Source of the DNA: Oceanicella sp. SM1341
GTDB taxonomy: Bacteria > Pseudomonadota > Alphaproteobacteria > Rhodobacterales > Rhodobacteraceae
Length of the DNA stretch: 32,000 nt
NCBI RefSeq assembly: GCF_003448965.1
Contig: NZ_QRGC01000030.1
Coordinates: 6,991-38,990, forward strand
Direction of reading: 5' to 3'
In this document: piece after piece, positions 1 through 18,883 of the stretch
Layout: every line of letters starts with the position of its first letter
Position numbering within the stretch: the first letter of the stretch is position 1
Notes under the pieces: model-generated
Database searches by the model: none
Seen by the model: the letters and a program-made list of their open reading frames with translations, nothing else
What the model was told of the DNA's origin: nothing
Program-made: the position numbers and the translations under genes

Positions 1-2
1 TC

Positions 3-1325
3 GTGTCGCCCGAGGATGCGGCGGACCTTGCCGACCTCAAGGGCTTCTCGCGCGATCTGATGGGCCAGATGGAGAAAGATCTTGGCACGCCGCTCGACTG
101 GGTCGGTGTCGATCACTGGAACACCGACAATCCCCATGTGCATATCATTCTGCGCGGACGGATGGAGGACGGCCAGGACCTTGTCATCTCCCGCGACTAT
201 ATCAAGGAGGGGATGCGCGCGCGGGCTGCCGATCTCGTCACCCAGGAACTCGGACCCCGCACCGATCTCGACATCCGGCGCGATCTGGAACGCCAGGTGG
301 AGGCCGAGCGCTGGACCCGGCTCGATCGCCAGCTCCTGCGCGATGGACGTGCAGCCAGCGTGATCGATACGGCGCCGGTGCCCGATCGCCAGCCCGACGA
401 ATACCAGCCGCTCAAGGTTGGCCGTCTGCGCAAGCTGGAAACCCTCGGTCTCGCCGCCGAGGTCGGCCCCGGCCAATGGGTGATCGACGACAAGGCCGAG
501 GCGACCCTGCGCGAGCTCGGCGAGCGCGGCGACATCATCAAGCGCATGCACCGGGCGCTGACGGAGCGCGGGATCGACCGTGGGTCGGCAAGCTATGTGC
601 TGGCCGCCGAAAGCCTCGACACGCCGATCATTGGTAAGCTGGTCGACCGCGGACTCGACGATGAGCTGAAGGGTACGGCCTATGCCGTGGTCGACGGCGT
701 CGATGGACGCACCCATCACATCCGCCTGTCCGATCTCGATGCAGCCGGGGATTCAGCGCCCGGCTCGATCGTCGAGTTGCGCCGGTTCGACAATGCGAAG
801 GGAGAACGGCGTGTCGCCCTCGCAGTGCGCTCCGATCTCGACATCGAGCGGCAGGTGACGGCGCCCGGCGCGACTTGGCTCGACCGGCAGAACGTGGCCC
901 GCGATCCCGCGGCATTGTCCGATGTCGGCTTCGGCGCCGAGGTGCGCCATGCCCTCCAGCGGCGCGCCGAACATCTTGTCGGTGAGGGCTTCGCCGAACG
1001 GACCGGTCAGCGCATCCGGTTCACCAGCAATCTGATCGACAGGCTGCGCAACCGCGAGGTGGAGCAACTCGGCGAGAAGCTCGCCGCCGAGACCGGCTCG
1101 ACCTTCAACCGTGCCGGCAGCGGCGATTATGTCGCCGGCGCCTATCGCCAGCGTTTCTCGCTCGCCTCCGGTCGCTTCGCCATGATCGATGACGGCCTCG
1201 GCTTCCAGCTTGTGCCCTGGACCCCGTCTATCGAGAAGCAACTCGGCAAACATATCTCCGGCGTCGCCCGCAACGATGGTGGCATCGACTGGAGCTTCGG
1301 TCGCAAGCGCGGCCTCGGTCTCTGA
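3..1325 (+). CDS. Relaxase/mobilization nuclease with DUF3363-type C-terminal region (5'-truncated by window edge)
   Basis: The ORF is open to the window start. It carries the relaxase histidine motif HWNTDNPHVHIILRG (HxDxxxPHxH). The long C-terminal region ends in GRKRGLGL, typical of relaxase+DUF3363 proteins found directly upstream of traG in Trb-type elements. Confidence 0.8.
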   Translation: MSPEDAADLADLKGFSRDLMGQMEKDLGTPLDWVGVDHWNTDNPHVHIILRGRMEDGQDLVISRDYIKEGMRARAADLVTQELGPRTDLDIRRDLERQVEAERWTRLDRQLLRDGRAASVIDTAPVPDRQPDEYQPLKVGRLRKLETLGLAAEVGPGQWVIDDKAEATLRELGERGDIIKRMHRALTERGIDRGSASYVLAAESLDTPIIGKLVDRGLDDELKGTAYAVVDGVDGRTHHIRLSDLDAAGDSAPGSIVELRRFDNAKGERRVALAVRSDLDIERQVTAPGATWLDRQNVARDPAALSDVGFGAEVRHALQRRAEHLVGEGFAERTGQRIRFTSNLIDRLRNREVEQLGEKLAAETGSTFNRAGSGDYVAGAYRQRFSLASGRFAMIDDGLGFQLVPWTPSIEKQLGKHISGVARNDGGIDWSFGRKRGLGL

Positions 1326-1352
1326 TCCAACAAACAGGAAAGGCCATCACCC

Positions 1353-3344
1353 ATGTCCGGTACCAAGATCCTCTGGGGGCAGATCCTCACGGTCTTTCTG
1401 ATCGTTCTTCTCACCACCTGGGGCGCGACCGAATATGTCGCCTGGAGGCTCGGGTTTCAGGCGCAGCTCGGATCGCCCTGGTTCATCCTGCTGGGCTGGC
1501 CGGTCTATCTGCCGCCGTCCTTCTTCTGGTGGTGGTATGCCTACGATGCCTATGCCCCCGACATCTTCGTCCGCGGCGCCTTCATCGCCGCGTCGGGCGG
1601 TTTCCTCGCCATCGCTGTCGCGATCGGCATGTCGGTCTGGCGCGCACGCGAGGCCAAGAAGGCGGAAACCTATGGCTCGGCGCGTTGGGCAGAGGCGCAG
1701 GAGGTGAAGTCGGCCGGGCTGCTGCGCCCCGATGGCGTGGTGCTCGGGCAATATAATCGTGACTATCTTCGCCACGACGGGCCGGAGCATGTCCTGTGTT
1801 TCGCGCCGACCCGATCAGGCAAGGGCGTCGGTCTCGTCGTCCCGTCGCTGCTGACCTGGCCCGGATCGGCGATCGTCCACGACATCAAGGGTGAGAACTG
1901 GCAGCTCACCTCCGGGTTCAGATCGCGCCACGCCCGCGTGCTCCTGTTTGACCCAACCAACGCCAAATCCGCCGCCTACAATCCGCTGCTCGAAGTGCGG
2001 CGCGGCGAATGGGAAGTGCGCGATGTCCAGAACATCGCCGACATCCTGGTCGACCCCGAAGGCAGCCTCGAGAAGCGAAACCATTGGGAGAAGACCTCTC
2101 ATGCGCTCTTGGTCGGCGCCATCCTGCATGTGCTCTATGCCGAGACGGACAAGACGCTGGCCGGTGTCGCCGCCTTCCTCTCCGACCCAGGGCGGCCAAT
2201 CGAGTCGACGCTGGCCACCATGATGAAGACGGCGCATCTGGGGCAGGGGGGACCGCATCCCGTCATCGCCAGCGCGGCGCGCGAACTGCTCAACAAGTCC
2301 GACAACGAGCGCTCGGGCGTGCTCTCCACGGCCATGTCGTTCCTCGGCCTCTATCGCGATCCTGTGGTGGCCGAAGTTACCCGGCGCTGCGACTGGCGCA
2401 TCGGCGACATCGTGGGCGCAAAAGACCCCACCACGCTCTATCTCGTCGTTCCTCCCTCCGACATCAACCGCACCAAGCCGTTGATCCGCCTGATCCTCAA
2501 TCAGGTGGGCCGTCGACTAACAGAAGATCTGCAGGCGAAAGCGGGCCGCCACCGGCTGCTGCTGATGCTCGACGAGTTTCCGGCGCTCGGCCGGCTCGAC
2601 TTCTTCGAGAGCGCACTCGCCTTCATGGCCGGTTATGGGCTGAAAAGCTTCCTGATCGCGCAATCGCTGAACCAGATCGAGAAGGCCTACGGCGCCAACA
2701 ACTCGATCCTCGACAATTGCCATGTTCGCGTCAGCTTCGCGACCAACGACGAACGCACGGCCAAGCGCGTCTCCGATGCACTCGGCACGGCCACGCAGAT
2801 GAAGGCGATGAAGAACTATGCCGGACACAGGCTCAGCCCCTGGCTCGGGCACCTCATGGTGTCGCGCTCGGAGACCGCGCGGCCGCTGCTCACCCCCGGC
2901 GAAATCATGCAGCTTCCGCCGAGCGACGAGATCGTCATGGTCGCGGGCACACCACCGATCCGGGCGAAGAAGGCCCGCTACTACGAGGACGCGCGCTTCA
3001 GCGAACGCATCTTGCCGCCACCGGCACACAGCGCGCCGAATGAGGGCCGCCCGGATGATTGGACCACGCTTCCATTGCCGGCGCGCCCGGCAGTGGCTGA
3101 GACGAAGGGTGCAACAGTGTCTCAGGACGAGGATACGACCGACTCCGAGCGCCGCCGTCAACCCGAACTCAGCCGGGTGAAGCCGGTGGAAAAGAAGGTA
3201 CCGATCGACAACCCCTTCGAACTGGATGCTGATCGAGACGAGGAGCTCGACGATGCTGCAACGCGCAATCAGCGCATGACCGGGCTCATGCAAGGGGTGG
3301 CGCGGCAGGTCTCGCTTGATCCGAACGACGGCATGGAGCTGTGA
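1353..3344 (+). CDS. traG: Type IV coupling protein TraG (VirD4 family)
   Basis: 663 aa with N-terminal hydrophobic segments. Walker A is APTRSGKGVGLVVPS and Walker B is LLLMLDEFPALG. SD AGGAAAGG lies upstream of the ATG at 1353. Confidence 0.95.
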   Translation: MSGTKILWGQILTVFLIVLLTTWGATEYVAWRLGFQAQLGSPWFILLGWPVYLPPSFFWWWYAYDAYAPDIFVRGAFIAASGGFLAIAVAIGMSVWRAREAKKAETYGSARWAEAQEVKSAGLLRPDGVVLGQYNRDYLRHDGPEHVLCFAPTRSGKGVGLVVPSLLTWPGSAIVHDIKGENWQLTSGFRSRHARVLLFDPTNAKSAAYNPLLEVRRGEWEVRDVQNIADILVDPEGSLEKRNHWEKTSHALLVGAILHVLYAETDKTLAGVAAFLSDPGRPIESTLATMMKTAHLGQGGPHPVIASAARELLNKSDNERSGVLSTAMSFLGLYRDPVVAEVTRRCDWRIGDIVGAKDPTTLYLVVPPSDINRTKPLIRLILNQVGRRLTEDLQAKAGRHRLLLMLDEFPALGRLDFFESALAFMAGYGLKSFLIAQSLNQIEKAYGANNSILDNCHVRVSFATNDERTAKRVSDALGTATQMKAMKNYAGHRLSPWLGHLMVSRSETARPLLTPGEIMQLPPSDEIVMVAGTPPIRAKKARYYEDARFSERILPPPAHSAPNEGRPDDWTTLPLPARPAVAETKGATVSQDEDTTDSERRRQPELSRVKPVEKKVPIDNPFELDADRDEELDDAATRNQRMTGLMQGVARQVSLDPNDGMEL

Positions 3345-8127: not shown

Positions 8128-8885
8128 TCCGCACCCGATCCAGCGCCCGGCGCTTCGCCCTGGCGCTTCTCAGCGCGCCCGTTCTTCTGACCCCGATACT
8201 GGCGACGCCCGCCTATGCGATCATCGTGTTCGATCCCTCGAACTACGCACAAAACGTCCTGACGGCGGCGCGCGCGCTCGAACAGATCAACAATCAGATC
8301 ACCTCGCTTCAGAACCAGGCGCAGATGCTGATCAACCAGGCCCGCAACCTCGCGAGCCTTCCGTTTTCCTCGCTGCAACAGCTTCAGCAATCCGTGCAGC
8401 GCACCCAGCAACTTCTCGCCCAAGCGCAGAACATCGCCTACAACGTGCAGCGGATCGATCAGGCGTTTCAGACCAAATACGCCAATGTCTCGATGTCCGC
8501 ATCGGACGCGCAGCTCGTCGCCGATGCCAGAACCCGCTGGCAGAACACCGTGGGCGGCCTGCAGGACGCCATGCGCGTACAGGCAACCGTCGTCGGCAAT
8601 ATCGAGACCAACCGCCAGCAGATGTCGGCGCTGGTGGGCGCGAGCCAGTCAGCGACGGGCGCTCTCCAGGCGACGCAGGCTGGCAACCAGCTTCTCGCCC
8701 TGCAGGCCCAGCAGCTCTCCGACCTCACAGCCGTCATCTCCGCGAATGGTCGCGCGCAGGCCCTGCACGATGCCGAGCAGGCCGCCGCGGCTGAACAGGG
8801 CCGCGAACAGCGTCGCCGCTTCCTGACCCCCGGTTCGGGCTACCAGCCCGGCAACGCCCGGATGTTCCCGGGCAGCGACAGTTGA
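8124..8885 (+). CDS. trbJ: TrbJ (VirB5-like)
   Basis: There is an ATGA overlap with the trbE stop. A signal peptide (LLTPILATPAYA) is followed by a Q/L-rich coiled-coil-like sequence typical of TrbJ. Confidence 0.85.
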   Translation: MIRTRSSARRFALALLSAPVLLTPILATPAYAIIVFDPSNYAQNVLTAARALEQINNQITSLQNQAQMLINQARNLASLPFSSLQQLQQSVQRTQQLLAQAQNIAYNVQRIDQAFQTKYANVSMSASDAQLVADARTRWQNTVGGLQDAMRVQATVVGNIETNRQQMSALVGASQSATGALQATQAGNQLLALQAQQLSDLTAVISANGRAQALHDAEQAAAAEQGREQRRRFLTPGSGYQPGNARMFPGSDS

Positions 8886-8895
8886 GGGCAGGGCG

Positions 8896-9165
8896 ATGGA
8901 CGGCAAGACCCTCGCACGCATCGGCGCCATCGTCTTCGTCGCGGTCGCGATCACCGCCACCGTGATCCAGATGACCCGCAAAGATGCGGTGCCTCCAGCG
9001 CCCGCCGCGTCCTCCGCGCCGACGGCGGACAGGCAAGATCCGCTGAGCGCGGAGCTAACCCGATGCAGCCAGGCCGGAGAAGCCGCCACACATGATCCAG
9101 CCTGCCTTAATGCCTGGGCCGAGAACCGTCGGCGTTTCCTCGGTCACAGCAGCGAAGGGCGCTGA
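8896..9165 (+). CDS. trbK: Putative entry-exclusion protein TrbK-alt
   Basis: 89 aa. The N-terminal TM segment is LARIGAIVFVAVAITATVI and the C-terminal motif is CLNAWAENRRRFLG. It sits between trbJ and trbL. Confidence 0.6.
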   Translation: MDGKTLARIGAIVFVAVAITATVIQMTRKDAVPPAPAASSAPTADRQDPLSAELTRCSQAGEAATHDPACLNAWAENRRRFLGHSSEGR

Positions 9166-9229
9166 ACGTGAAAGTAGAGATGAAGCGCTCCATCGCCTTC
9201 CGGAGACGAGTTTCTCTATCCCTCTTCCC

Positions 9230-9263
9230 GAACCGGACATGCAGGTTTCCAAGCATCCGGCTC
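9230..9263 (-). ncRNA. Group II intron domain V
   Basis: The minus strand reads GAGCCGGATGCTTGGAAACCTGCATGTCCGGTTC. This is a 34-nt hairpin with the AGC triad, a G-U wobble, a 2-nt bulge and a GAAA-type apical loop. Confidence 0.9.
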
Positions 9264-9299
9264 TCCATGCACGGGCGGTCGTCAGCCCGTGGGTGTGCC

Positions 9300-10826
9300 T
9301 CAAACGCGTCTGAGGCGCGCGAACGCAGTCCAGAAGTCAAGCAGGGTTTCCCGATGCCTGTTTTCCCATCTTGCGTTCCATCCGTTCGGTTTCTCGATTC
9401 GCTGTTCCGGGTAACGCATGGTTCCTCCGTCAGTGAAGAACCGCAGGCGTCTGGACCCTTCGGTCCATTGCCGTCGTTTTCCGGGGGCGCTGAGATGATA
9501 GCGGCGCCGCAGGGTCGGCCAACCCGCATTGCCGTGCTTCATCTTCAACCAGCGCCCGACGCGCTGCCATATCCAGAAGTCGAGATGGCTGAACCGACCG
9601 TGCGCGCCTGTGGCGTAACGGTAATAGTTCCTCCACCCCGTGATGACCGGATTGAGCCTGTCGATGACGTAGGCAAGGTCGCGTCCCGTGGGGATGCCCC
9701 TCACCATGACCTTGATCTTGTGGCGCAGGTCGTTCAGCTTTCCCTTCGGGATGAAGAGATTGCCGACCCATCGGCCTGTCCGACAGGCTCTGGTCTGCGC
9801 CACCCGGTAGCCGAGGAAGTCGAAGCCTTCCCTGACATCGGTGATCCGGGTCTTTTCCATCGACAGTTCCATGCGAAGCTCCGTCTTCAGGAACTCCGCC
9901 AGCGCGAGCTTTTCCGCTTCCGCCTGCTCCCGCGTGCCATCCACGAGAACGACGAAGTCGTCCGCGTATCGCACCATGTAGAGCACCGGCCGACCCCTCT
10001 TGTGGTCTCTGACCCTTCGGGCCGCCGGATTGATGCTCGGTTCGCGGGGGCGGCCTGTCCACCATCCATACCGCTCGTCGATGGCTGTCAGGTAGATGTT
10101 CGACAGCATCGGCGAGATGATCCCGCCTTGCGGCGAGCCGGTGACGGGGTGGCGTTCGGTCCCTTCGACCATCACACCGGCTTTCAGGAACGAGAGGATC
10201 AGCGCCAGCACCTTGCGGTCGCCGATGCGTTTCCGGACCCGCTCCATCATGACGTGATGATCGATGGCGTCGAAGCAGCCCTTGATGTCTCCCTCTATGA
10301 CATAGCGATAGACCGAGGGTCCGCGCTTTGTCGGGTGAAGGAACCTCTGGATTCTTGCCAGAGCATCGTGGGTGCTTCGACCGCGCCGGAACCCGTAGGA
10401 GGTCGGATAGAAGTCCGCCTCGAAGATAGGCTCCAGGACCAGCTTCAAAGCCATCTGCACCAGACGATCGACCAACGTTGGAATGCCGAGTGGCCGGAAC
10501 TGCCCCGGTTTGCCGGGCTTTGGGATAAGCCGCTGCCTGACCGGTTGGGGACGATAGGTTCCGTTGCGAAGCACCTCGCGTATCTCATCGAGGAACCCTG
10601 CTGCGCCACCGGGACGCTGTTCGACCATGCGCCGCGTCACCCCGTCGGTGCCGGGTGTCTGGCTGCCCCGATTACCGGACAGCCTTCGCCACGCCTCCTC
10701 AAGGAATCGGCGGTCGCATACGAGATTGAACAGACCAGCGAAGACCTTGTCGGGGTCTTCGTTGCTCCACCGATACAGCTTGCGCTGCATGTCGAGGACG
10801 AACAAGATATTCATCTCGTTGGACAT
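9300..10826 (-). CDS. Group II intron reverse transcriptase/maturase (no En domain)
   Basis: 508 aa from the ATG at 10826, preceded by AGGAGG with a 7 nt spacer. RT motifs present: IPKPGKPGQFRPLGIPTLVDRLVQ, DIKGCFD, GSPQGGIISPMLSNIYL, RYADDFVVL. The maturase X motif is ITGWRNYYRYA. The C-terminal ~90 aa contain no Cys and no HNH signature. Confidence 0.93.
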   Translation of the reverse strand: MSNEMNILFVLDMQRKLYRWSNEDPDKVFAGLFNLVCDRRFLEEAWRRLSGNRGSQTPGTDGVTRRMVEQRPGGAAGFLDEIREVLRNGTYRPQPVRQRLIPKPGKPGQFRPLGIPTLVDRLVQMALKLVLEPIFEADFYPTSYGFRRGRSTHDALARIQRFLHPTKRGPSVYRYVIEGDIKGCFDAIDHHVMMERVRKRIGDRKVLALILSFLKAGVMVEGTERHPVTGSPQGGIISPMLSNIYLTAIDERYGWWTGRPREPSINPAARRVRDHKRGRPVLYMVRYADDFVVLVDGTREQAEAEKLALAEFLKTELRMELSMEKTRITDVREGFDFLGYRVAQTRACRTGRWVGNLFIPKGKLNDLRHKIKVMVRGIPTGRDLAYVIDRLNPVITGWRNYYRYATGAHGRFSHLDFWIWQRVGRWLKMKHGNAGWPTLRRRYHLSAPGKRRQWTEGSRRLRFFTDGGTMRYPEQRIEKPNGWNARWENRHRETLLDFWTAFARLRRV

Positions 10827-11464
10827 GGGTCCACCTCCTGCCTGCTCGCTGTATCCACTGCCTTCCTTCGCCATGTGGACGGCTTTCCCGTCCCCGGACT
10901 ACTACGAAGGCTCCGCCCCTCACCATCGCGGTCGCTGGTCGCTTCAGCCATCCGGGGTCCGACTGTTCCGGAAGCGACGGCAAGGTTCTTAGGTTCCGTA
11001 ACTGATCTCTCGCCTGCTTTAGGCGCCGACTTTACCCCGTGTGGATTCCGACCCCGATACCGCGCAAGCTCATATCGAGGCTGGCGCACGGCACGCCGCA
11101 CACCCCCAGCCCATGTGTCCATAGCACGGGCCAACGCTCCACAAATCTGCGGTTCGCACCACAGACCGACCCGCCGACTTCCGAGTTGGCGTGTCTCCGC
11201 GCGTAACGAGGCGTCCGCCATCGGTTCGGTTTCCCTCGCCATGGCAGGCTCGCTGGCCGGACCACGTACGGGATCGGAAGTCCCCGCCCGTCCGGCTTTG
11301 ATGGGTTCTGCTGATTTATGGCTCCCCGGAAGCACCCGGTTTGCCTCACCCATCGGCTTGTCACCGCATGTTGCGCCACACGGTGCGCGGGGCCTTTCAT
11401 CCCGCGAGATCAGAAACGACAATAAAATCAAAGCACTCCTTTCTTTGATCAGGACCTAACGCAC

Positions 11465-12796
11465 ATGGGCAACACCGGCGTCATCGATCACTTCCTCGAT
11501 GTCTTTACCCGCTACATCGACGGCGGCTTCGGTCTGCTTGGCGGCGAGGTCGGTTTCATCGCCACCACGCTGATCGTCATCGACGTGACGCTGGCCGCGC
11601 TCTTCTGGTCCTGGGGCGCCGACGACGACATCATGGCGCGGCTCGTCAAGAAGACGCTTTTCGTCGGTGTTTTCGCCTACATCATCTCCAACTGGAACAA
11701 TCTGGCCCGGATCGTTTTCGAAAGCTTCGCGGGGCTCGGCCTGAAGGCGTCCGGCACGGGCTTTACCACGGCCCAGCTTCTCCAGCCCGGCAAGGTCGCC
11801 CAGACCGGCCTTGATGCGGGGAGGCCGCTGCTCGATTCCATCTCGAACCTGATGGGCTATTGGTCCTTCTTCGAGAATTTCATCCAGATCGCCTGCATGT
11901 TCTTCGCCTGGGCGCTGGTGCTCTTGGCCTTCTTCATCCTCGCCATCCAGCTCTTCGTCACGCTGATCGAGTTCAAGCTGACGACGCTCGCCGGCTTCGT
12001 GCTGATCCCCTTCGGTCTCTTCGGCAAGTCCGCCTTCATGGCCGAGCGGGTGCTCGGTAACGTCATCTCCTCGGGCATCAAGGTTCTGGTGCTCGCCGTT
12101 ATCATCGGTATCGGCTCGACACTCTTTTCCGAATTCGCCGCAGGGTTTGGCGGCGCGACACCGACCATCGACGATGCGATGGCGATCGTGCTGGCAGCCC
12201 TTTCACTGCTTGGCCTCGGCATTTTCGGCCCCGGTATCGCAACGGGGCTCGTCTCCGGCGGTCCCCAGCTTGGCGCCGGATCGGCGATCGGCAGCGGTCT
12301 TGCTGCCGGCGGCATGGTCGTCGCGGGCGGCGCGGCGCTCGGGGCTGCGGCCTCCGGTGGCGCATCTCTCCTTGGCGGAGCGGCGGCAGCCGCCCGTGGT
12401 GGGGCCGCGCTCGCGGGCGGGGCATCCACCGCCTACAGCCTCGGCGCCGCCGGACAGACCGGCGCGTCCGCCGTTGCATCTGGCCTCGGCAATGTCGCCA
12501 GCACCGGCGCATCGCAGGCTGGATCTGCCTTGGTCAGCCCGCTCAGACGCGCCGCGGGATCGATGCGCGGCAGCTTCGAGGCCGGTGGGCGTGCCGTCTC
12601 CGGCGAAGCCGCTGCCGATGAACGTGCATCGGCCGCAGCCGCAGCCTCATCTGCGCCCGACAGCCCGCCTGCCTGGGCAAAGCGCATGAAGCGCTCCCAA
12701 GCCATGTCCCACGGGATGCAGGTCGCAGCCCATTCCGTCCGCAGCGGCGACAGCCACGGCAGCGGCTCTTCCGTCAACACCTCCGAAAGCGACTGA
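11465..12796 (+). CDS. trbL: TrbL (VirB6 family)
   Basis: 443 aa. The N-terminus GVIDHFLDVFTRYIDGGFGLLGGEVGFIATTLIVIDVTLA is typical of TrbL. It has multiple TM segments and a Gly/Ala-rich C-terminal tail. Confidence 0.93.
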   Translation: MGNTGVIDHFLDVFTRYIDGGFGLLGGEVGFIATTLIVIDVTLAALFWSWGADDDIMARLVKKTLFVGVFAYIISNWNNLARIVFESFAGLGLKASGTGFTTAQLLQPGKVAQTGLDAGRPLLDSISNLMGYWSFFENFIQIACMFFAWALVLLAFFILAIQLFVTLIEFKLTTLAGFVLIPFGLFGKSAFMAERVLGNVISSGIKVLVLAVIIGIGSTLFSEFAAGFGGATPTIDDAMAIVLAALSLLGLGIFGPGIATGLVSGGPQLGAGSAIGSGLAAGGMVVAGGAALGAAASGGASLLGGAAAAARGGAALAGGASTAYSLGAAGQTGASAVASGLGNVASTGASQAGSALVSPLRRAAGSMRGSFEAGGRAVSGEAAADERASAAAAASSAPDSPPAWAKRMKRSQAMSHGMQVAAHSVRSGDSHGSGSSVNTSESD

Positions 12797-15774: not shown

Positions 15775-16014
15775 ATGACCAAACTGAAACTTGGGCCACT
15801 CGCCGACGACAAGCCGGTCAAGGTCACACTGGAGCTGCCCGCCAGCCTGCACCGAGACTTGACCGCCTATGCCACAATCCTTGCCCGAGAGGTGGGGCAG
15901 CCCGCCGCCGATCCTACTCGCCTGATCGTCCCCATGCTGGAGCGGTTCATCGCGACGGATCGCGGCTTTGCGAAGGCCCGGCGGACATTGCCGAGAGAAT
16001 CTCCGCCGGGCTAG
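15775..16014 (+). CDS. DUF2274 family protein (conserved last gene of Trb-type transfer modules)
   Basis: 79 aa, MTKLKLGPLADDKPVKVTLELPASLHRDLTAYA..., starting 2 nt after the trbI stop. Both the position and the sequence are characteristic of the family. Confidence 0.8.
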   Translation: MTKLKLGPLADDKPVKVTLELPASLHRDLTAYATILAREVGQPAADPTRLIVPMLERFIATDRGFAKARRTLPRESPPG

Positions 16015-16927
16015 GGTCGCTTGCGCTATGGGATTTTGCCATCTGGCGCGCCATGCTGATCAGACGCCGACTGGCAGGATTGTCATTGTGCGGCGACCAG
16101 ACTGCGCTGAAGGGCAGCACCTCACCCTGGATCGGCCGATAGACGACGCCTGGAAACTGCGCGGCCGTCGTCGCTTCGCTGGTCAAGGTCAAGCCACGAC
16201 CGATCGCGACCAAGGTCATGAGGTTGTCCCTTCCAACACTTTGCGCCTCAATCTCTGGGTGCCGACCAAGCTCGGCGAGCCGCTGCATCAGAAAATCGTG
16301 AATCTCCGGCCCTGGGGCGGAATCGCTAATGATGAAACGCTCTCCTGAGACATCCGTCCACTCGATCTCGTCGAGTTGCGCCAGCGTATGTTGGAGCGGG
16401 AGAACCAGAAAGACGCGCTCGCTCCAGAGGTGCATGGTATCGCAGCCTCTCCAAGCCGCTGTCCCAGTTATGAACGCGACGTCGAGCCGAAGCTGACGCA
16501 CCGCGGCAACATGTTCCGCCGGATTGCCGTTGATCAAATCAATCGAGACACCAGCATGGGCCCGATCATAGGAATTGAGCAACTCGTGAAGAAAGCCGGA
16601 CGCCAGCGATGAAAATATTCCGATCTTGATTTGCCCTTCTTCCGATCTGCCGATGCCTGCAACCTCGTTGGCGCCTTGATGGACGCTTTTCAGAGCCGTT
16701 CGGGCTCGGACCAAAAAGCGCTGTCCAGCCACCGTCAGGAGCACACCAGTGGTCCTGCGTTGGAATAGCGATGCGCCTAGCATGTCTTCGAGATCGCGAA
16801 GACGGCGGCTGACAGCGGACTCCTGCATGCCAAGCGCCTTCGCAGCCTTGCGGAAACTGCCTTGTTCCGCTGCAGCTACGAAATATCGGAGATGCCTAAG
16901 TTCTATGCGGAGATCGCATCTGGCCAT
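15947..16927 (-). CDS. LysR family transcriptional regulator
   Basis: The N-terminal wHTH is LRHLRYFVAAAEQGSFRKAAKALGMQESAVSRRLRDLE, followed by a LysR substrate-binding domain. The last ~22 codons run antisense into the DUF2274 gene. Confidence 0.88.
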   Translation of the reverse strand: MARCDLRIELRHLRYFVAAAEQGSFRKAAKALGMQESAVSRRLRDLEDMLGASLFQRRTTGVLLTVAGQRFLVRARTALKSVHQGANEVAGIGRSEEGQIKIGIFSSLASGFLHELLNSYDRAHAGVSIDLINGNPAEHVAAVRQLRLDVAFITGTAAWRGCDTMHLWSERVFLVLPLQHTLAQLDEIEWTDVSGERFIISDSAPGPEIHDFLMQRLAELGRHPEIEAQSVGRDNLMTLVAIGRGLTLTSEATTAAQFPGVVYRPIQGEVLPFSAVWSPHNDNPASRRLISMARQMAKSHSASDPSPAEILSAMSAGPSQSRDPSR

Positions 16928-17228
16928 GGCGCAGCTCTAAACAAGGCCACTTCGGCAACGCTGAAAACAACATCTGGCCGCTGTGCGAGACCCGCATGAT
17001 CGCAATTGGGTATGAGTGGAATTGGGGCGAACGGTACCGCGGATTCTCCTTCAGCCTTTGCCTTCATTTGAGAGATCCCCAAGTCATTTTGTCGAATAAG
17101 GTGTGCCGTATTTCGCCTGCACACGTAACAGCGGCACCCGAAATGTAACCGAGGACCGGATCGCTGTACGTCTAGCCACACACGGTGCGCCTGTAATTTC
17201 TGCGATGGAGAAGGTGGGTTTCATGCTG

Positions 17229-18011
17229 TCATGCCGGAATGGAAATGCCTGACAGTTTCCGACATTTTTCGATCAGCTTGTCCTGCAGATCGCAATCGCT
17301 TGCCTCGGGATTGGCAGAACGTTCACGCATGTGATGAAAATAGCGCCCCGTCACTCGGGCCGCGGCATCATCGCTCGTTGCAAGCCAGGCCTGCGTTCGA
17401 TGCGCCTCGTCCAGATCATCTGGGGCGCTGGGGCCACCCATGCGGGTTGGAACCCAGCCCGGCTCCAGCGCATTCGACAGCACCGATGTCCAGCGACGCG
17501 CTATTGCGAAAGCGAGCAATACGTCATGCAGTTTGCTCTCAGAATAGGCTTCGGAGCCATCCCATACGCGTTTGCGCCATTCCAGGTCGTCAAGGGCCGC
17601 GCCTGCCCAGTGATGCATGCCGGAGCTGAGATAGACAAGCCGATCGGGCCTTTCGATCAGGGCCGTCAGTGCATAGGGCGCCAAGACATTTACCGCAAAC
17701 ACATGCGGCAGACCCTCCTCTGTTTCGAGCCGCCGCCGCTCCCGATATCCGACCCCGGCATTGTGAATAATCGCGTTGAAGCGTCCAAGCCTGTTAACCT
17801 GTTCGGCAACTTGGCGGGCACCCGCGACACTCGAAAGATCGCCTACGACCACAGCCTCCGCCATTGGCAATGCTTGAAGGGCATCCTTGGCTCGCGCTTC
17901 GTTTCGTGCATGAAGGACGACCTGATGGCCTTGCTCGACCAGCAACTGGCCTGCCATAAGCCCAAGTCCTGTCGACGATCCGGTAATAAACACTCTGCGC
18001 ATCTGCGACAT
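17229..18011 (-). CDS. SDR family NAD(P)-dependent oxidoreductase
   Basis: Rossmann motif VFITGSSTGLG, NAG motif IHNAGV and catalytic YSESK. SD GGGGA lies upstream of the start. Confidence 0.9.
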   Translation of the reverse strand: MSQMRRVFITGSSTGLGLMAGQLLVEQGHQVVLHARNEARAKDALQALPMAEAVVVGDLSSVAGARQVAEQVNRLGRFNAIIHNAGVGYRERRRLETEEGLPHVFAVNVLAPYALTALIERPDRLVYLSSGMHHWAGAALDDLEWRKRVWDGSEAYSESKLHDVLLAFAIARRWTSVLSNALEPGWVPTRMGGPSAPDDLDEAHRTQAWLATSDDAAARVTGRYFHHMRERSANPEASDCDLQDKLIEKCRKLSGISIPA

Positions 18012-18025
18012 GTCTGTTCCCCGGC

Positions 18026-18883
18026 CTACTGAGCGACCAGTGTCTCGATCACGGTGTCGAGCGTTACGGTCCCGGTTCGGTGTTCCGCGCTGCCGCCTTC
18101 GAAATCGACCCAGCCTTCGTTGAAACCGTCAAGCATACGGATCCGCAGCGTTGGATTATTCATCCCTTGTGCGCGGAAGAGGGCTTCCCAGCTGTCGTGC
18201 GGCACGGGTTCCGTTGCCACGGGATGGCCGAGAGCCGCGGCAAAGGCCGAGGCGATGTCATTGGCGCAATAGCGTCGCGGCCCCTCGAGCTCGACAATAC
18301 GTGTTCCGCCCCAGGTTTCACGCAGGAGACTGGCTGCAGTCCGGCCGATGTCGCTTGTTGCGACCATCGGGATCGGGTGATCGAGCGGTTGCAGGAAGGA
18401 GGGAATCGTGCCCTCACGGGCGGACGCCAGATCCCATTTCGCATTGTCCATGAACCAAGCGGCGCGCAGAAAACATACCGGGATAGGGAGGGCGCGCAAT
18501 GCTTCCTCCATCATCCTCGAATTGTTGAGAAGCATCGGCTCCGCCACATGCGCGCCGACCGTCGATAGAAACAGCAGCTTGCCGGGCTGGGCGGTTTCAA
18601 CTGCCGAGGTGACGACGGCAATGATCTGCGCCGTCTGCGGAAAGCCCGGTTCAGGATCGTAGTTTGGCGGCATCAGCAGGAAGACGCCCTCGGCGCCGCC
18701 AAACGCCGCTGCCAACGCATCGGCATCAAGGATATCGGCGATGGCAATCTCACAGCCCTTCGCGGCCCAGATCGCTCCCTTTTCTGCATTGCGGACGACG
18801 GCGCGAACGGGAAGGCCCGCGTCGAGCAGAGTTTGCGCGACGATCGCTCCGACTTGTCCGGTAATACCTGTGACGACGTACAT
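18026..18883 (-). CDS. NmrA-like NAD(P)-binding protein
   Basis: The start is set at MYVVTGITGQVG (GGAGA SD upstream), which avoids overlap with the upstream SDR. It has the atypical-SDR/NmrA architecture without YxxxK. Confidence 0.8.
   Translation of the reverse strand: MYVVTGITGQVGAIVAQTLLDAGLPVRAVVRNAEKGAIWAAKGCEIAIADILDADALAAAFGGAEGVFLLMPPNYDPEPGFPQTAQIIAVVTSAVETAQPGKLLFLSTVGAHVAEPMLLNNSRMMEEALRALPIPVCFLRAAWFMDNAKWDLASAREGTIPSFLQPLDHPIPMVATSDIGRTAASLLRETWGGTRIVELEGPRRYCANDIASAFAAALGHPVATEPVPHDSWEALFRAQGMNNPTLRIRMLDGFNEGWVDFEGGSAEHRTGTVTLDTVIETLVAQ

What the first reader, a model, noticed from the sequence alone, without database searches (positions are those of the whole stretch)
9174..11464. 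Group II intron inserted antisense, exactly at the trbK/trbL junction of the T4SS operon
Several features define a complete intron on the minus strand: a GUGCG 5' end, a canonical domain V, a domain VI-like hairpin with a bulged A, and an RT/maturase ORF. The trb genes run on the plus strand. The intron therefore cannot be spliced out of the trb transcript, and it adds 2.29 kb between trbK and trbL. Every other gene junction in the operon is overlapping or at most 14 nt. Removing 9174-11464 leaves ...GAAGGGCGCTGAACGTGAAA|ATGGGCAAC..., which is a plausible native junction. A candidate EBS1 (ATGGGC, minus strand at 11114-11109) is complementary to the last 6 nt of the proposed 5' exon (GCCCAT). 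A 6-mer match is only weak support. The insertion may attenuate or disable expression of trbL-F-G-I and so limit self-transfer of the element.
Basis: partly seen in the sequence, partly recalled or inferred. Interest (0 to 1): 0.7.

Follow-up and report, generated by a model that had tools for sequence, protein, structure and literature searches.

The report
Backwards group II intron homing to trbL start
A complete self-splicing retroelement (group II intron) sits backwards between two genes of a bacterial DNA-transfer operon; it belongs to a widespread lineage that always targets this exact spot and seems to keep its reverse strand readable by ribosomes, so the operon may still work.

Summary
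The intron is real: Rfam domain V/VI at 54.9 bits, an RT+maturase ORF, and DI-DIII with 111 of 168 pairs showing compensatory changes. It lies on the minus strand between trbK and trbL.

Two details were wrong. Three uninterrupted homologous junctions show the insert is 9168-11464 (2,297 bp), not 9174-11464. The native junction is GCGCTGAAC|ATGGGC. The proposed EBS1 is a stem strand; covariation puts EBS1 in the loop at 11122-11117 (5/6 match).

The insertion is not accidental. Eleven trb operons (TrbL 47-64% identical where measured) carry introns 79-92% identical (measured on ten copies) at exactly this position, antisense, abutting the trbL start codon. This is horizontal, site-specific homing.

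In all eleven copies the operon-sense frame is stop-free across the whole intron. It starts where the trbL start codon used to be and ends at a stop 5-17 nt before trbL (TAA, 5 nt, in the window). The other frames have 20-30 stops. Codon controls on ten copies show stops are actively avoided (0 of 53 CTN/TCN sites versus 8.5-15 expected).

I infer a translational bridge that limits polarity. This is untested. A second maintained open frame on the intron-sense strand is unexplained.

The parts
9168..11464 (-). Complete group II intron, 2,297 nt (5' GUGCG ... UUUCAC 3')
   Evidence: Rfam hit. Gapless alignment of the intron-deleted window to empty sites L086/L087/L088. Colinear copies 79-92% identical in ten other trb operons.
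10989..11459 (-). Domain I (intron nt 6-476). Closing helix UUAGG/CCUAA.
   Evidence: RNAalifold on 17 relatives; pairs covary, e.g. UA:11 / CG:6. Coordinates.
11117..11122 (-). EBS1 (ATGGAC) in the loop of hairpin 11132-11108. Pairs 5/6 with IBS1 GCCCAT.
   Evidence: The same alignment column is complementary to each relative's own 5' exon. Covaries among trbL-site copies: L185 ATGGGC/GCCCAT, L096 ATGGAC/GTCCAT, L177 ATGGGT/GCCCAT.
11195..11204 (-). EBS2 region (ACGCGCGGAG). Only about 3 bp of pairing with this copy's exon (CCGGTG).
   Evidence: Covariation in relatives: L185 CAGTGG/CCACTG, L183 ACACTGG/CCGGTGT, L096 CTTGG/TTGAG.
11465..11478 (-). IBS1 (11470-11465) and the expected IBS2 tract. 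This is the complement of the first 14 nt of trbL, including its ATG.
   Evidence: The 5' exon is ...CCGGTGTTGCCCAT|GTGCG.
10915..10988 (-). Domain II
   Evidence: structure; coordinates.
10860..10911 (-). Domain III
   Evidence: structure; coordinates.
9300..10826 (-). Intron-encoded protein, 508 aa. RT plus maturase (X), YADD at 9968-9957, no endonuclease domain. SD AGGAGG lies just upstream.
   Evidence: Pfam RVT_1 and GIIM. TIGR04416 339 bits. The 508-aa length is conserved in most of >100 homologue clusters. No HNH hit.
9230..9263 (-). Domain V, 34 nt (GAGCCGGAUGCUUGGAAACCUGCAUGUCCGGUUC)
   Evidence: Rfam RF00029 alignment.
9168..9227 (-). Domain VI. Bulged branch-point A at 9175, 7 nt from the 3' end.
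   Evidence: Rfam alignment.
9168..11459 (+). Operon-sense open frame of 763 codons spanning the whole insert. GTG at 9168 sits exactly where the trbL ATG used to be. There is an in-frame ATG at 9180 and a TAA at 11457-11459, 5 nt before the trbL ATG.
   Evidence: Conserved in all 11 trbL-site copies, against 20-30 stops in the other frames. Stop-avoidance controls. No Pfam hit and no codon periodicity.
11451..11454 (+). SD-like AGGA, 10 nt upstream of the trbL ATG, supplied by the complement of the intron 5' end
   Evidence: Variants AGGA/GGGA/GGAA occur in the other copies.
10811..11431 (-). Intron-sense 206-codon open frame over DI-DIII. Invariant AAGGAG-N4-TTG start; TGA 13 nt past the IEP ATG. 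Function unknown.
   Evidence: Gene callers predict it in many copies.
8896..9165 (+). trbK (TrbK-alt entry-exclusion type), intact. Its stop is 2 nt before the insert.
   Evidence: Pfam PF20084, 2e-36. Homologues 91% and 84% identical at empty sites.
11465..12796 (+). trbL, intact. Its start codon abuts the intron 5' end.
   Evidence: Pfam TrbL, 8.5e-57. Homology to intron-less trbL genes begins at 11463-11465.

Best explanation
**What it is (shown).** An intact-looking group II intron without an endonuclease domain occupies 9168-11464 on the minus strand. It belongs to a lineage (IEP about 78% identical or more) whose home site is the strand antisense to trbL, immediately 5' of the complement of the trbL start codon. 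The host operons are P-type (Trb) conjugative transfer operons of alphaproteobacterial ICEs and plasmids.

**How it targets (shown).** The intron recognises the complement of the conserved first ~15 nt of trbL through EBS1 and EBS2. These exon-binding sites covary with the host sequence from copy to copy. Recognition lies almost entirely in the intron's 5' exon, so an antisense intron can use conserved coding sequence as its address and still land just outside the ORF. Neither trbK nor trbL is broken.

**How it spread (shown).** The intron moved horizontally between diverged trb operons. Intron identity is far higher than flank identity.

**Insertion mechanism (inferred, not tested).** Like other endonuclease-less introns, it probably reverse-splices into transiently single-stranded DNA. 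One possible substrate is the transferred strand during conjugation. If oriT lies upstream of rlxS as usual, that strand is the template strand of the relaxase-co-oriented trb genes.

**Effect on the operon (inferred, about 45% likely).** The lineage has been selected to stay translatable in the operon direction.
- The complement of its 3' end supplies GTG(A) at the old trbL start position. That places it behind the native trbL ribosome-binding site and next to the trbK stop.
- A 763-codon stop-free frame then crosses the insert.
- A TAA ends the frame 5 nt before the trbL ATG.
- Ribosomes can therefore run from trbK through the insert and re-initiate at trbL. This would limit Rho-type polarity and restore translational coupling.

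**This particular copy.** It is imperfectly matched to its exons (EBS1 5/6, EBS2 about 3 bp). It probably came from a trbL variant with GTCCAT at the start codon, and it may splice poorly from its own transcript.
For: **Identity and ends.**

**Same site in 11 operons.**

**Horizontal spread.** Intron nucleotide identity is 87-91%, against 66-71% for trbL nucleotides and 47-64% for TrbL protein. The closest introns do not sit in the closest TrbL backgrounds.

**EBS/IBS covariation.**

**No endonuclease domain.**

**Open frame.**
- One terminal stop in every copy, against 20-30 stops in each other frame.
- In the non-coding ribozyme parts, 0 stop gains among ten copies against 14 in the other two frames. 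About 8 are expected, or 4.4 at the lowest frame rate.
- In the IEP, TTA/CTA/TCA are absent in all ten copies. Synonymous A-ending codons arose at 51 of 180 other four-fold sites but at 0 of 53 CTN/TCN sites. The expectation is 15, or 8.5 at the slowest family rate.
- Outgroup introns at other sites carry 1-7 such codons.
- The ORF is not conserved as a protein: no codon periodicity, and amino-acid identity is below nucleotide identity.

**Junction mimicry.** GTGA or GTAG replaces the native ATGA overlap. In L179 the native AGGAG lies 8 nt before the GTG.

**No terminator.** No intrinsic terminator-like site in 8800-12200.

**Downstream genes.** trbL/F/G are called with the expected Pfam families in the loci that extend that far.
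Against: - No expression data of any kind. Translation of the 763-codon frame is not shown.
- Codon-aligned antisense frames of GC-rich genes are often open anyway.
- A Markov simulation gives a 2.6% chance that the DI-DIVa part of that frame is open in a single sequence.
- A second frame, on the intron-sense strand over DI-DIVa, is maintained just as strictly. The bridge idea does not predict it. Part of its signal is shared with the operon-sense frame through TA dinucleotides at one phase.
- The SD-like AGGA is 10 nt from the trbL ATG, which is a long spacing.
- The host-sense RNA is no more C-rich than the flanking trb genes (C/G 1.16 against 1.13-1.16). There is no special Rho signature.
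- Two copies have degenerate splice ends (L188 GCGCG, L097). Some copies are therefore old residents, and their host elements might no longer transfer.
- No promoter for the intron's own transcription was found.
- oriT lies outside the window, so the transferred-strand idea is untested.
Confidence: 0.55

Rival explanations
1. The intron is a polar insertion that lowers or abolishes expression of trbL-trbF-trbG-trbI, so it limits self-transfer of the element. The lineage persists because its hosts are ICEs or plasmids that can be inherited vertically, or mobilised, without their own pilus.
For: - The intron cannot be spliced from trb mRNA because of its orientation.
- The native trbL ribosome-binding site is displaced by 2.3 kb.
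- Some copies have decayed splice ends (L188, L097), which suggests long residence.
- None of the 15 plasmid-collection records that matched trbL carries it, so occupied sites are a minority.
Against: - Eleven independent occupied operons have downstream trb genes called with the expected Pfam families.
- A disabling insertion gives no reason to avoid stops in the operon-sense frame.
- It also gives no reason to end that frame 5 nt before trbL in every copy.
Confidence: 0.22
2. The intron is simply tolerated. The open frames are by-products of two things. One is the usual shadow ORF opposite a GC-rich gene. The other is strong sequence conservation of the ribozyme, inherited from an ancestor that lacked stops in those frames by chance.
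For: - The open frame is codon-aligned with the IEP.
- The chance probability for the DI part alone is about 2.6%.
- Two overlapping frames on opposite strands are both open and share a TA-phase dependency.
- There is no protein-level conservation.
- Relatives at other sites (L006, L007, L011) also have largely open frames.
Against: - Synonymous A-ending codons accumulate freely in other codon families (51 of 180 sites) but never in CTN/TCN (0 of 53).
- Stop gains are frequent in the other frames of the same non-coding sequence.
- Outgroups in similar hosts do carry TTA/CTA/TCA.
- Every TA at the critical phase is in the one context (R-TA-Y) that is harmless to both frames.
Confidence: 0.2
3. 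The 763-codon operon-sense ORF encodes a functional protein of its own.
For: It is long and conserved as an ORF, with a start codon and an upstream ribosome-binding site.
Against: - No Pfam match.
- No third-position excess of substitutions in the part that does not overlap the IEP.
- Amino-acid identity is lower than nucleotide identity.
- The composition is rich in Arg, Pro and Ala, typical of antisense translation.
Confidence: 0.03

Closest known systems
Endonuclease-less bacterial group II introns such as RmInt1 of Sinorhizobium meliloti (ORF class D) and the class E / 'g' varieties (Toro & Martinez-Abarca 2013, PMC3552965)
   Same: - RT-maturase IEP with a short C-terminal extension and no D/En domain.
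- IIB-like RNA with EBS1 and EBS2.
- Alphaproteobacterial hosts and residence in mobile DNA.
- Expected to insert into single-stranded DNA at forks. That last point rests on my own knowledge and on the discussion in PMC12584367.
   Different: - RmInt1 homes into IS elements. This lineage homes antisense to the start of a conjugation gene.
- The IEP is 508 aa, against about 420 aa for RmInt1.
- The ORF class was not determined here.
Group IIC-attC introns of integrons (PMC7923331)
   Same: A whole lineage is dedicated to one kind of site. It inserts in the orientation opposite to transcription of the surrounding gene array, so it cannot be spliced from the host transcript.
   Different: - IIC introns recognise a DNA hairpin plus a very short IBS1/IBS3 and have a reduced domain V.
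- This intron has a 34-nt domain V and EBS1 plus EBS2 pairing to conserved coding sequence. No hairpin or terminator lies at the site.
- No spanning ORF has been described for IIC-attC introns, as far as my searches show.
[quoted passage not shown] 2025, PMC12584367)
   Same: - Insertion at the very edge of an ORF, so the protein is unchanged.
- Intron-borne nucleotides replace a translation signal. There it is UAA to UAG. Here GTGA or GTAG replaces the ATGA stop/start overlap, and GTG replaces the start.
- High site specificity to a conserved gene, which allows spread between strains.
   Different: - Those introns are in sense orientation, are co-transcribed and spliced, and carry a 300-700 nt subdomain Ia and a CL1-lineage IEP.
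- This one is antisense, has no such insertion and lacks the endonuclease domain.
Ll.LtrB in the relaxase gene of pRS01 / the lactococcal sex factor, and the general association of group II introns with conjugative T4SS (Novikova 2014, PMC4256276; Waldern 2020, PMC7306698: 9% of conjugative T4SSs hold an intron)
   Same: The intron is carried by a conjugative element and rides with it between cells.
   Different: Ll.LtrB interrupts the ORF in sense orientation, and conjugation depends on its splicing. Here the intron lies between ORFs, antisense, and splicing is irrelevant to the host operon.

Membership tests
Group II intron (ribozyme plus IEP) | 5' GUGYG consensus and a 3' AY end | tested here: met
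   GUGCG at 11464-11460 and ...UUUCAC at 9168. The ends are fixed by empty sites.
Group II intron (ribozyme plus IEP) | Domain V (34-nt hairpin with AGC triad) and domain VI with a bulged branch A 7-8 nt from the 3' end | tested here: met
   RF00029 at 54.9 bits against a gathering score of 40, full model 1-77. Branch A at 9175, 7 nt from the end.
Group II intron (ribozyme plus IEP) | Domains I-III foldable and supported by covariation | tested here: met
   168 pairs, 111 with compensatory changes, across 17 relatives.
Group II intron (ribozyme plus IEP) | RT (domains 0-7) plus maturase X protein encoded in domain IV | tested here: met
   RVT_1 2.7e-31 and GIIM 2.7e-15. TIGR04416 339 bits against a cut-off of 300. 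YADD is present.
Group II intron (ribozyme plus IEP) | EBS1-IBS1 and EBS2-IBS2 pairing with the 5' exon | tested here: inconclusive
   Both sites were located by covariation in relatives. In this copy EBS1 pairs 5/6 and EBS2 pairs only about 3 bp. No EBS3 candidate was found.
Group II intron (ribozyme plus IEP) | Self-splicing and retromobility | not testable with these tools
   Needs in vitro or in vivo splicing and mobility assays.
Endonuclease-less IEP classes (A, C, D, E, F/g) | No D/En (HNH) region after domain X | tested here: met
   Only RVT_1 and GIIM match. 49 residues follow X, with no HNH hit.
Endonuclease-less IEP classes (A, C, D, E, F/g) | Placement in a named ORF class by phylogeny of X plus the C-terminal extension | not tested
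   No reference class sequences were available. The Rfam class-specific D1-D4 models gave no hit. PDB matches did not discriminate.
Group IIC (terminator/attC-targeting) introns | Shortened domain V, no EBS2, insertion just after a DNA hairpin | tested here: not met
   Domain V is 34 nt. EBS2 is present in the lineage. No terminator-like hairpin occurs around the site.
IIB1 'start/stop-codon' specialised lineage | Sense-orientation insertion at initiation or termination codons, plus a 300-700 nt 5'-subterminal subdomain Ia | tested here: not met
   The orientation is antisense in all 11 copies. The stretch between the DI closing-helix 5' strand and the next helices is only about 60 nt. Feature definition from PMC12584367.
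P-type (Trb) conjugative T4SS operon (the host context) | Colinear trbB-C-D-E-J-K-L-F-G-I with coupling protein and relaxase | tested here: met
   TrbB TIGR02782, TrbC, TrbE, TrbJ, TrbK, TrbL, VirB8/TrbF, CagX/TrbG, TrbI, IncP-type TraG and an RlxS-like relaxase. trbD was not scanned.

The most novel reading that the evidence does not exclude
This intron lineage is built to be nearly 'transparent' to transcription-translation coupling in both directions.
- **Operon strand.** A maintained 763-codon frame carries ribosomes from the old trbL start position to a stop 5 nt before the displaced trbL ATG.
- **Intron strand.** A maintained upstream frame with an invariant AAGGAG-N4-TTG start covers DI-DIII and ends just after the IEP start. 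Almost the whole element is therefore covered by translatable frames.

The proposed purpose is to shield both transcripts from Rho-type termination, and to keep an operon working despite a 2.3-kb backwards insertion. That would be a new kind of host-accommodation strategy for a retroelement. It would also be a case of selection for 'openness' with no selection on the protein.
Probability: 0.3. Interest if true: 0.8.

Novelty: new variant of a known kind. Interest (0 to 1): 0.62.

Why it matters
Group II introns are usually said to survive either by splicing out of host genes or by hiding in harmless intergenic DNA. Here a lineage does neither.
- It inserts backwards in the middle of a tightly coupled 10-gene conjugation operon, at one exact nucleotide.
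- It does so in at least 11 diverged elements from several alphaproteobacterial orders.

**If the maintained operon-sense frame is a translational bridge:**
- It shows a third survival strategy: make the insertion readable instead of removable.
- It gives a clean natural system for studying polarity, translational coupling and selection on ORF openness alone.
- It affects annotation, because a 763-aa 'hypothetical protein' opposite an intron RT need not be noise.

**If the bridge idea is wrong,** the site-specific antisense homing to the trbL start is still a useful addition to the short list of specialised group II intron lineages. It also marks horizontal traffic between ICEs and plasmids.

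Tried and rejected
Rejected by the Rfam alignment and the empty sites.
Rejected. It is the 3' stem strand of the EBS1 hairpin.
3. **Empty sites from the plasmid collection.** The trbK 3' ends were too diverged to fix the left end. Solved through TrbK homologues on Logan contigs.
4. **Genome and metagenome scans with the IEP.**
   - They gave only relatives of 79% identity or less, and mostly about 45% actinobacterial ones.
   - The informative copies came from the protein search plus contig look-ups.
5. **Intron class.**
   - No Rfam D1-D4 class model matched.
   - PDB hits (T.el4h, LtrA, GsI-IIC) did not discriminate.
   - The class is left open.
6. **Host-sense ORF as a real protein.** No Pfam hit and no codon periodicity.
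7. **Rho-loading signature.** The C/G ratio of the host-sense insert equals that of the flanking trb genes, so it is not informative.
8. **Promoter for the intron's own transcription.**
   - The sigma-70 scan found nothing upstream on the minus strand.
   - That scan is not informative for alphaproteobacterial promoters.
9. **EBS3.** No position complementary to +1 in all copies.
10. **Transferred-strand hypothesis for the antisense bias.** Could not be tested, because oriT lies outside the window.
11. **Literature.** Searches for trbL plus intron, antisense plus polarity, and Rho plus intron found no prior description. The library holds open-access papers only, so absence is weak evidence.
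Full report
**1. The observation**

A covariance search of the whole window gives a single hit above threshold. It is the group II intron domain V/VI model RF00029 at 9265-9168 on the minus strand (54.9 bits, gathering score 40, full model length).

The minus strand reads ...GTTGCCCAT|GTGCGTTAGG at 11465/11464 and ...CTCTACTTTCAC|GTTCAGCGCC at 9168/9167.

Between the two ends lies an ORF (10826-9300).
- It matches RVT_1, the group II maturase domain and NCBIfam TIGR04416 (339 bits).
- Its 508-aa length is shared by most of over a hundred homologue clusters, so the ATG at 10826, preceded by AGGAGG, is the start.
- There is no endonuclease domain.

An alignment of the first ~625 nt of 17 relatives folds into DI, DII and DIII. 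It has 168 pairs, 111 of which keep pairing through changes on both sides.

The flanks are TrbK (8896-9165) and TrbL (11465-12796). They sit in an RlxS-TraG-TrbB/C/E/J/K/L/F/G/I backbone, all on the plus strand. The core of the finding is therefore correct.

**2. Corrections**

*Left boundary.* The closest TrbK homologues (91% and 84% identical) lie on short contigs where the next gene starts 2 nt after the trbK stop.
- With 9168-11464 removed, the window aligns without a gap over 979-1003 nt at about 92% identity to these contigs.
- The empty junction reads GAAGGGCGCTGAA[T/C]|ATGGGCAAC.
- The insert is 2,297 bp and its 3' end is 9168, as the Rfam alignment also says.

*EBS1.* In relatives with unrelated 5' exons, one alignment column carries a 6-mer complementary to each intron's own exon.
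- That column is the loop of a covariation-supported hairpin.
- In the window the loop is CUAUGGACA and EBS1 is ATGGAC (11122-11117).
- EBS1 pairs 5/6 with GCCCAT.

*EBS2.* It lies near intron nt 262-270 by covariation: CAGTGG/CCACTG, ACACTGG/CCGGTGT and CTTGG/TTGAG. In the window it pairs with only about 3 nt of the exon.

The window's EBS1 would be perfect for GTCCAT, the start-codon context found in L096. This copy therefore looks like a recent arrival from a slightly different trbL.

**3. It is a dedicated homing site, not an accident**

I fetched the genomic context of nine IEP-relative clusters at 78-91% identity, plus one 79% metagenome copy. Together with the window that gives 11 occupied operons.

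| Host or source | Loci |
|---|---|
| Bradyrhizobium sp. Arg314 | L090 |
| Several Sphingopyxis genomes | L091-L095 |
| Mesorhizobium | L183 |
| Methylocapsa | L185 |
| Agrobacterium vitis-type contigs | L188 |
| Metagenome contigs | L096, L097, L177, L179, L193 |

- Every one sits between trbK (or trbJ) and trbL, antisense. Its 5' exon ends in the complement of the trbL start codon (...CAT| or ...CAC|).
- The ten aligned introns (the window plus nine copies) are 2,296-2,297 nt long and 79-92% identical to each other.
- Among the four closest copies the introns are 87-91% identical. The trbL genes they abut are only 66-71% identical in nucleotides and 47-64% in protein.
- The closest introns do not sit in the closest TrbL backgrounds. 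This means horizontal, site-specific retrohoming.
- EBS1 covaries with IBS1 among the copies.
- Relatives below about 76% identity sit elsewhere, but in the same style: antisense, 10-56 nt upstream of a start codon of another ICE or plasmid gene. Examples are the DUF736 start in L005, L024 and L191, a relaxase-like gene in L006, and others in L011, L013 and L194.

The geometry makes sense. Recognition is nearly all in the 5' exon. An antisense intron can therefore read conserved N-terminal coding sequence and still land just outside the ORF. It is the mirror image of the sense-oriented groEL stop-codon introns.

**4. The operon-sense open frame**

On the plus strand, frame 0 has no stop from 9111 to 11457. 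The other two frames have 27-28 stops inside the insert (28-30 across 9000-11600).

The frame has these landmarks:
- GTG at 9168, exactly where the trbL ATG used to be, 2 nt after the trbK stop.
- An in-frame ATG at 9180.
- A TAA at 11457-11459, 5 nt before the trbL ATG.

All 11 trbL-site copies share this. Each has one terminal stop (two adjacent ones in the decayed L097), against 20-30 stops in each other frame.

This frame is codon-aligned with the IEP, so GC-rich codon usage could explain part of it. I therefore ran controls.
- **Non-coding ribozyme parts.** The ten copies show 0 stop gains in this frame, against 11 and 3 in the other two frames. About 8 are expected, or 4.4 at the lower rate.
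- **IEP region, codon counts.** TTA, CTA and TCA are absent from all ten copies, although other A-ending four-fold codons run at 15%.
- **IEP region, substitutions.** Synonymous A-ending codons arose at 51 of 180 other four-fold sites but at 0 of 53 CTN/TCN sites. The expectation is 15, or 8.5 at the slowest family's rate.
- **Outgroups.** Introns at other sites carry 1-7 such codons.

The ORF is not conserved as a protein.
- Substitutions show no codon periodicity in the part that does not overlap the IEP (p = 0.5).
- Amino-acid identity is below nucleotide identity.
- It has no Pfam match.

The junctions look like mimicry. Where the native junction was an ATGA stop/start overlap, the complement of the intron's 3' end supplies GTGA or GTAG at the same place. 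In L179 the native AGGAG now sits 8 nt before the GTG.

No intrinsic-terminator-like site occurs in 8800-12200.

**5. Interpretation and its limits**

I infer that the lineage is selected to remain translatable in the operon direction. Ribosomes would pass from trbK through the insert and re-initiate at trbL, which would limit polarity. This is inference only, because there are no expression data.

Several results temper it.
- A single-sequence simulation gives 2.6% for the DI part of the frame being open by chance.
- The host-sense RNA is no more C-rich than the neighbouring trb genes.
- The SD-like AGGA lies 10 nt from the ATG.
- Above all, a second frame on the intron-sense strand over DI-DIVa is equally free of stop gains. 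It runs 11431-10811, with an invariant AAGGAG-N4-TTG start and a TGA 13 nt past the IEP ATG.

The two frames share a dependency on TA dinucleotides at one phase. Each also has its own signal.
- TGA is absent at the sense-frame phase.
- TCA is absent at the host-sense phase.
- All surviving TAs at the shared phase are in the one harmless context, R-TA-Y.

One idea covers both frames: translation shields both transcripts from Rho. This is speculative, and I list it as the novel reading.

**6. Known relatives and novelty**

- Group II introns are known to favour mobile elements and conjugative T4SS regions. About 9% of such systems hold one.
- A lineage inserted opposite to host transcription is known for IIC-attC introns.
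- A lineage tied to start and stop codons is known for sense-oriented IIB1 introns.
- I found no description of an antisense trbL-start lineage or of a maintained spanning frame. The library holds open-access papers only.
- The ORF class of the IEP was not determined.

I rate this a new variant of a known kind. The window's intron itself is ordinary in kind. Its lineage's behaviour is not.

Noticed in passing
window 10811-11431 (-): A 206-codon open frame lies on the intron-sense strand over DI-DIII. It has an invariant AAGGAG-N4-TTG start and a conserved TGA 13 nt after the IEP ATG. It shows 0 stop gains among ten copies, against 13 and 9 in the other sense frames. It is not predicted by the bridge idea and remains unexplained.
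   Followed up: partly
L090, L091, L183 left junctions (host-sense): In these operons the native trbK/trbL junction was an ATGA stop/start overlap. After insertion, trbK ends at a TAG or TGA supplied by the complement of the intron's last four bases (GTAG or GTGA).
   Followed up: partly
L188/L189 and L097: These are decaying copies at the same site. L188/L189 start GCGCG instead of GUGCG. L097 has CTGCG and no canonical 3' end. Both still keep the operon-sense frame open.
   Followed up: partly
L008:152-180 and L009:3328-3356: A 28-nt copy of the intron's own 5' end lies immediately upstream of the full intron. The 3' flank weakly resembles the continuation of that fragment. This suggests an intron inserted into an older intron copy.
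   Followed up: no
L005, L024, L191 (and probably L190): A sister sublineage (IEP 64-70% identical) sits antisense about 10-12 nt upstream of the start codon of a DUF736 gene. EBS2 ACATGG pairs with CCATG(T), which contains the complement of the start codon. This sublineage does not keep the antisense frame open (9-14 stops).
   Followed up: partly
L013:523-608 (-): A second group II domain V hit (68.5 bits) lies on the opposite strand about 2.7 kb upstream of the first intron in the same contig.
   Followed up: no
L192:1-4027: Two group II intron RT genes lie in tandem, in the same orientation, on an Agrobacterium leguminum plasmid.
   Followed up: no
window 11195-11204 and 11117-11122: This copy's EBS2 (GCGCGG) and EBS1 (ATGGAC) do not fit its present exon well. 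They would fit a trbL beginning ATGGAC. This suggests arrival from a different trb operon.
   Followed up: partly
window 1-3344 and 15900-18100: The window starts inside an RlxS-like relaxase gene (3-1325), followed by IncP-type traG. After trbI the backbone gives way to a minus-strand LysR regulator (15947-16927) and an SDR oxidoreductase (17229-18011), presumably cargo. The rest of the window was not examined.
   Followed up: no
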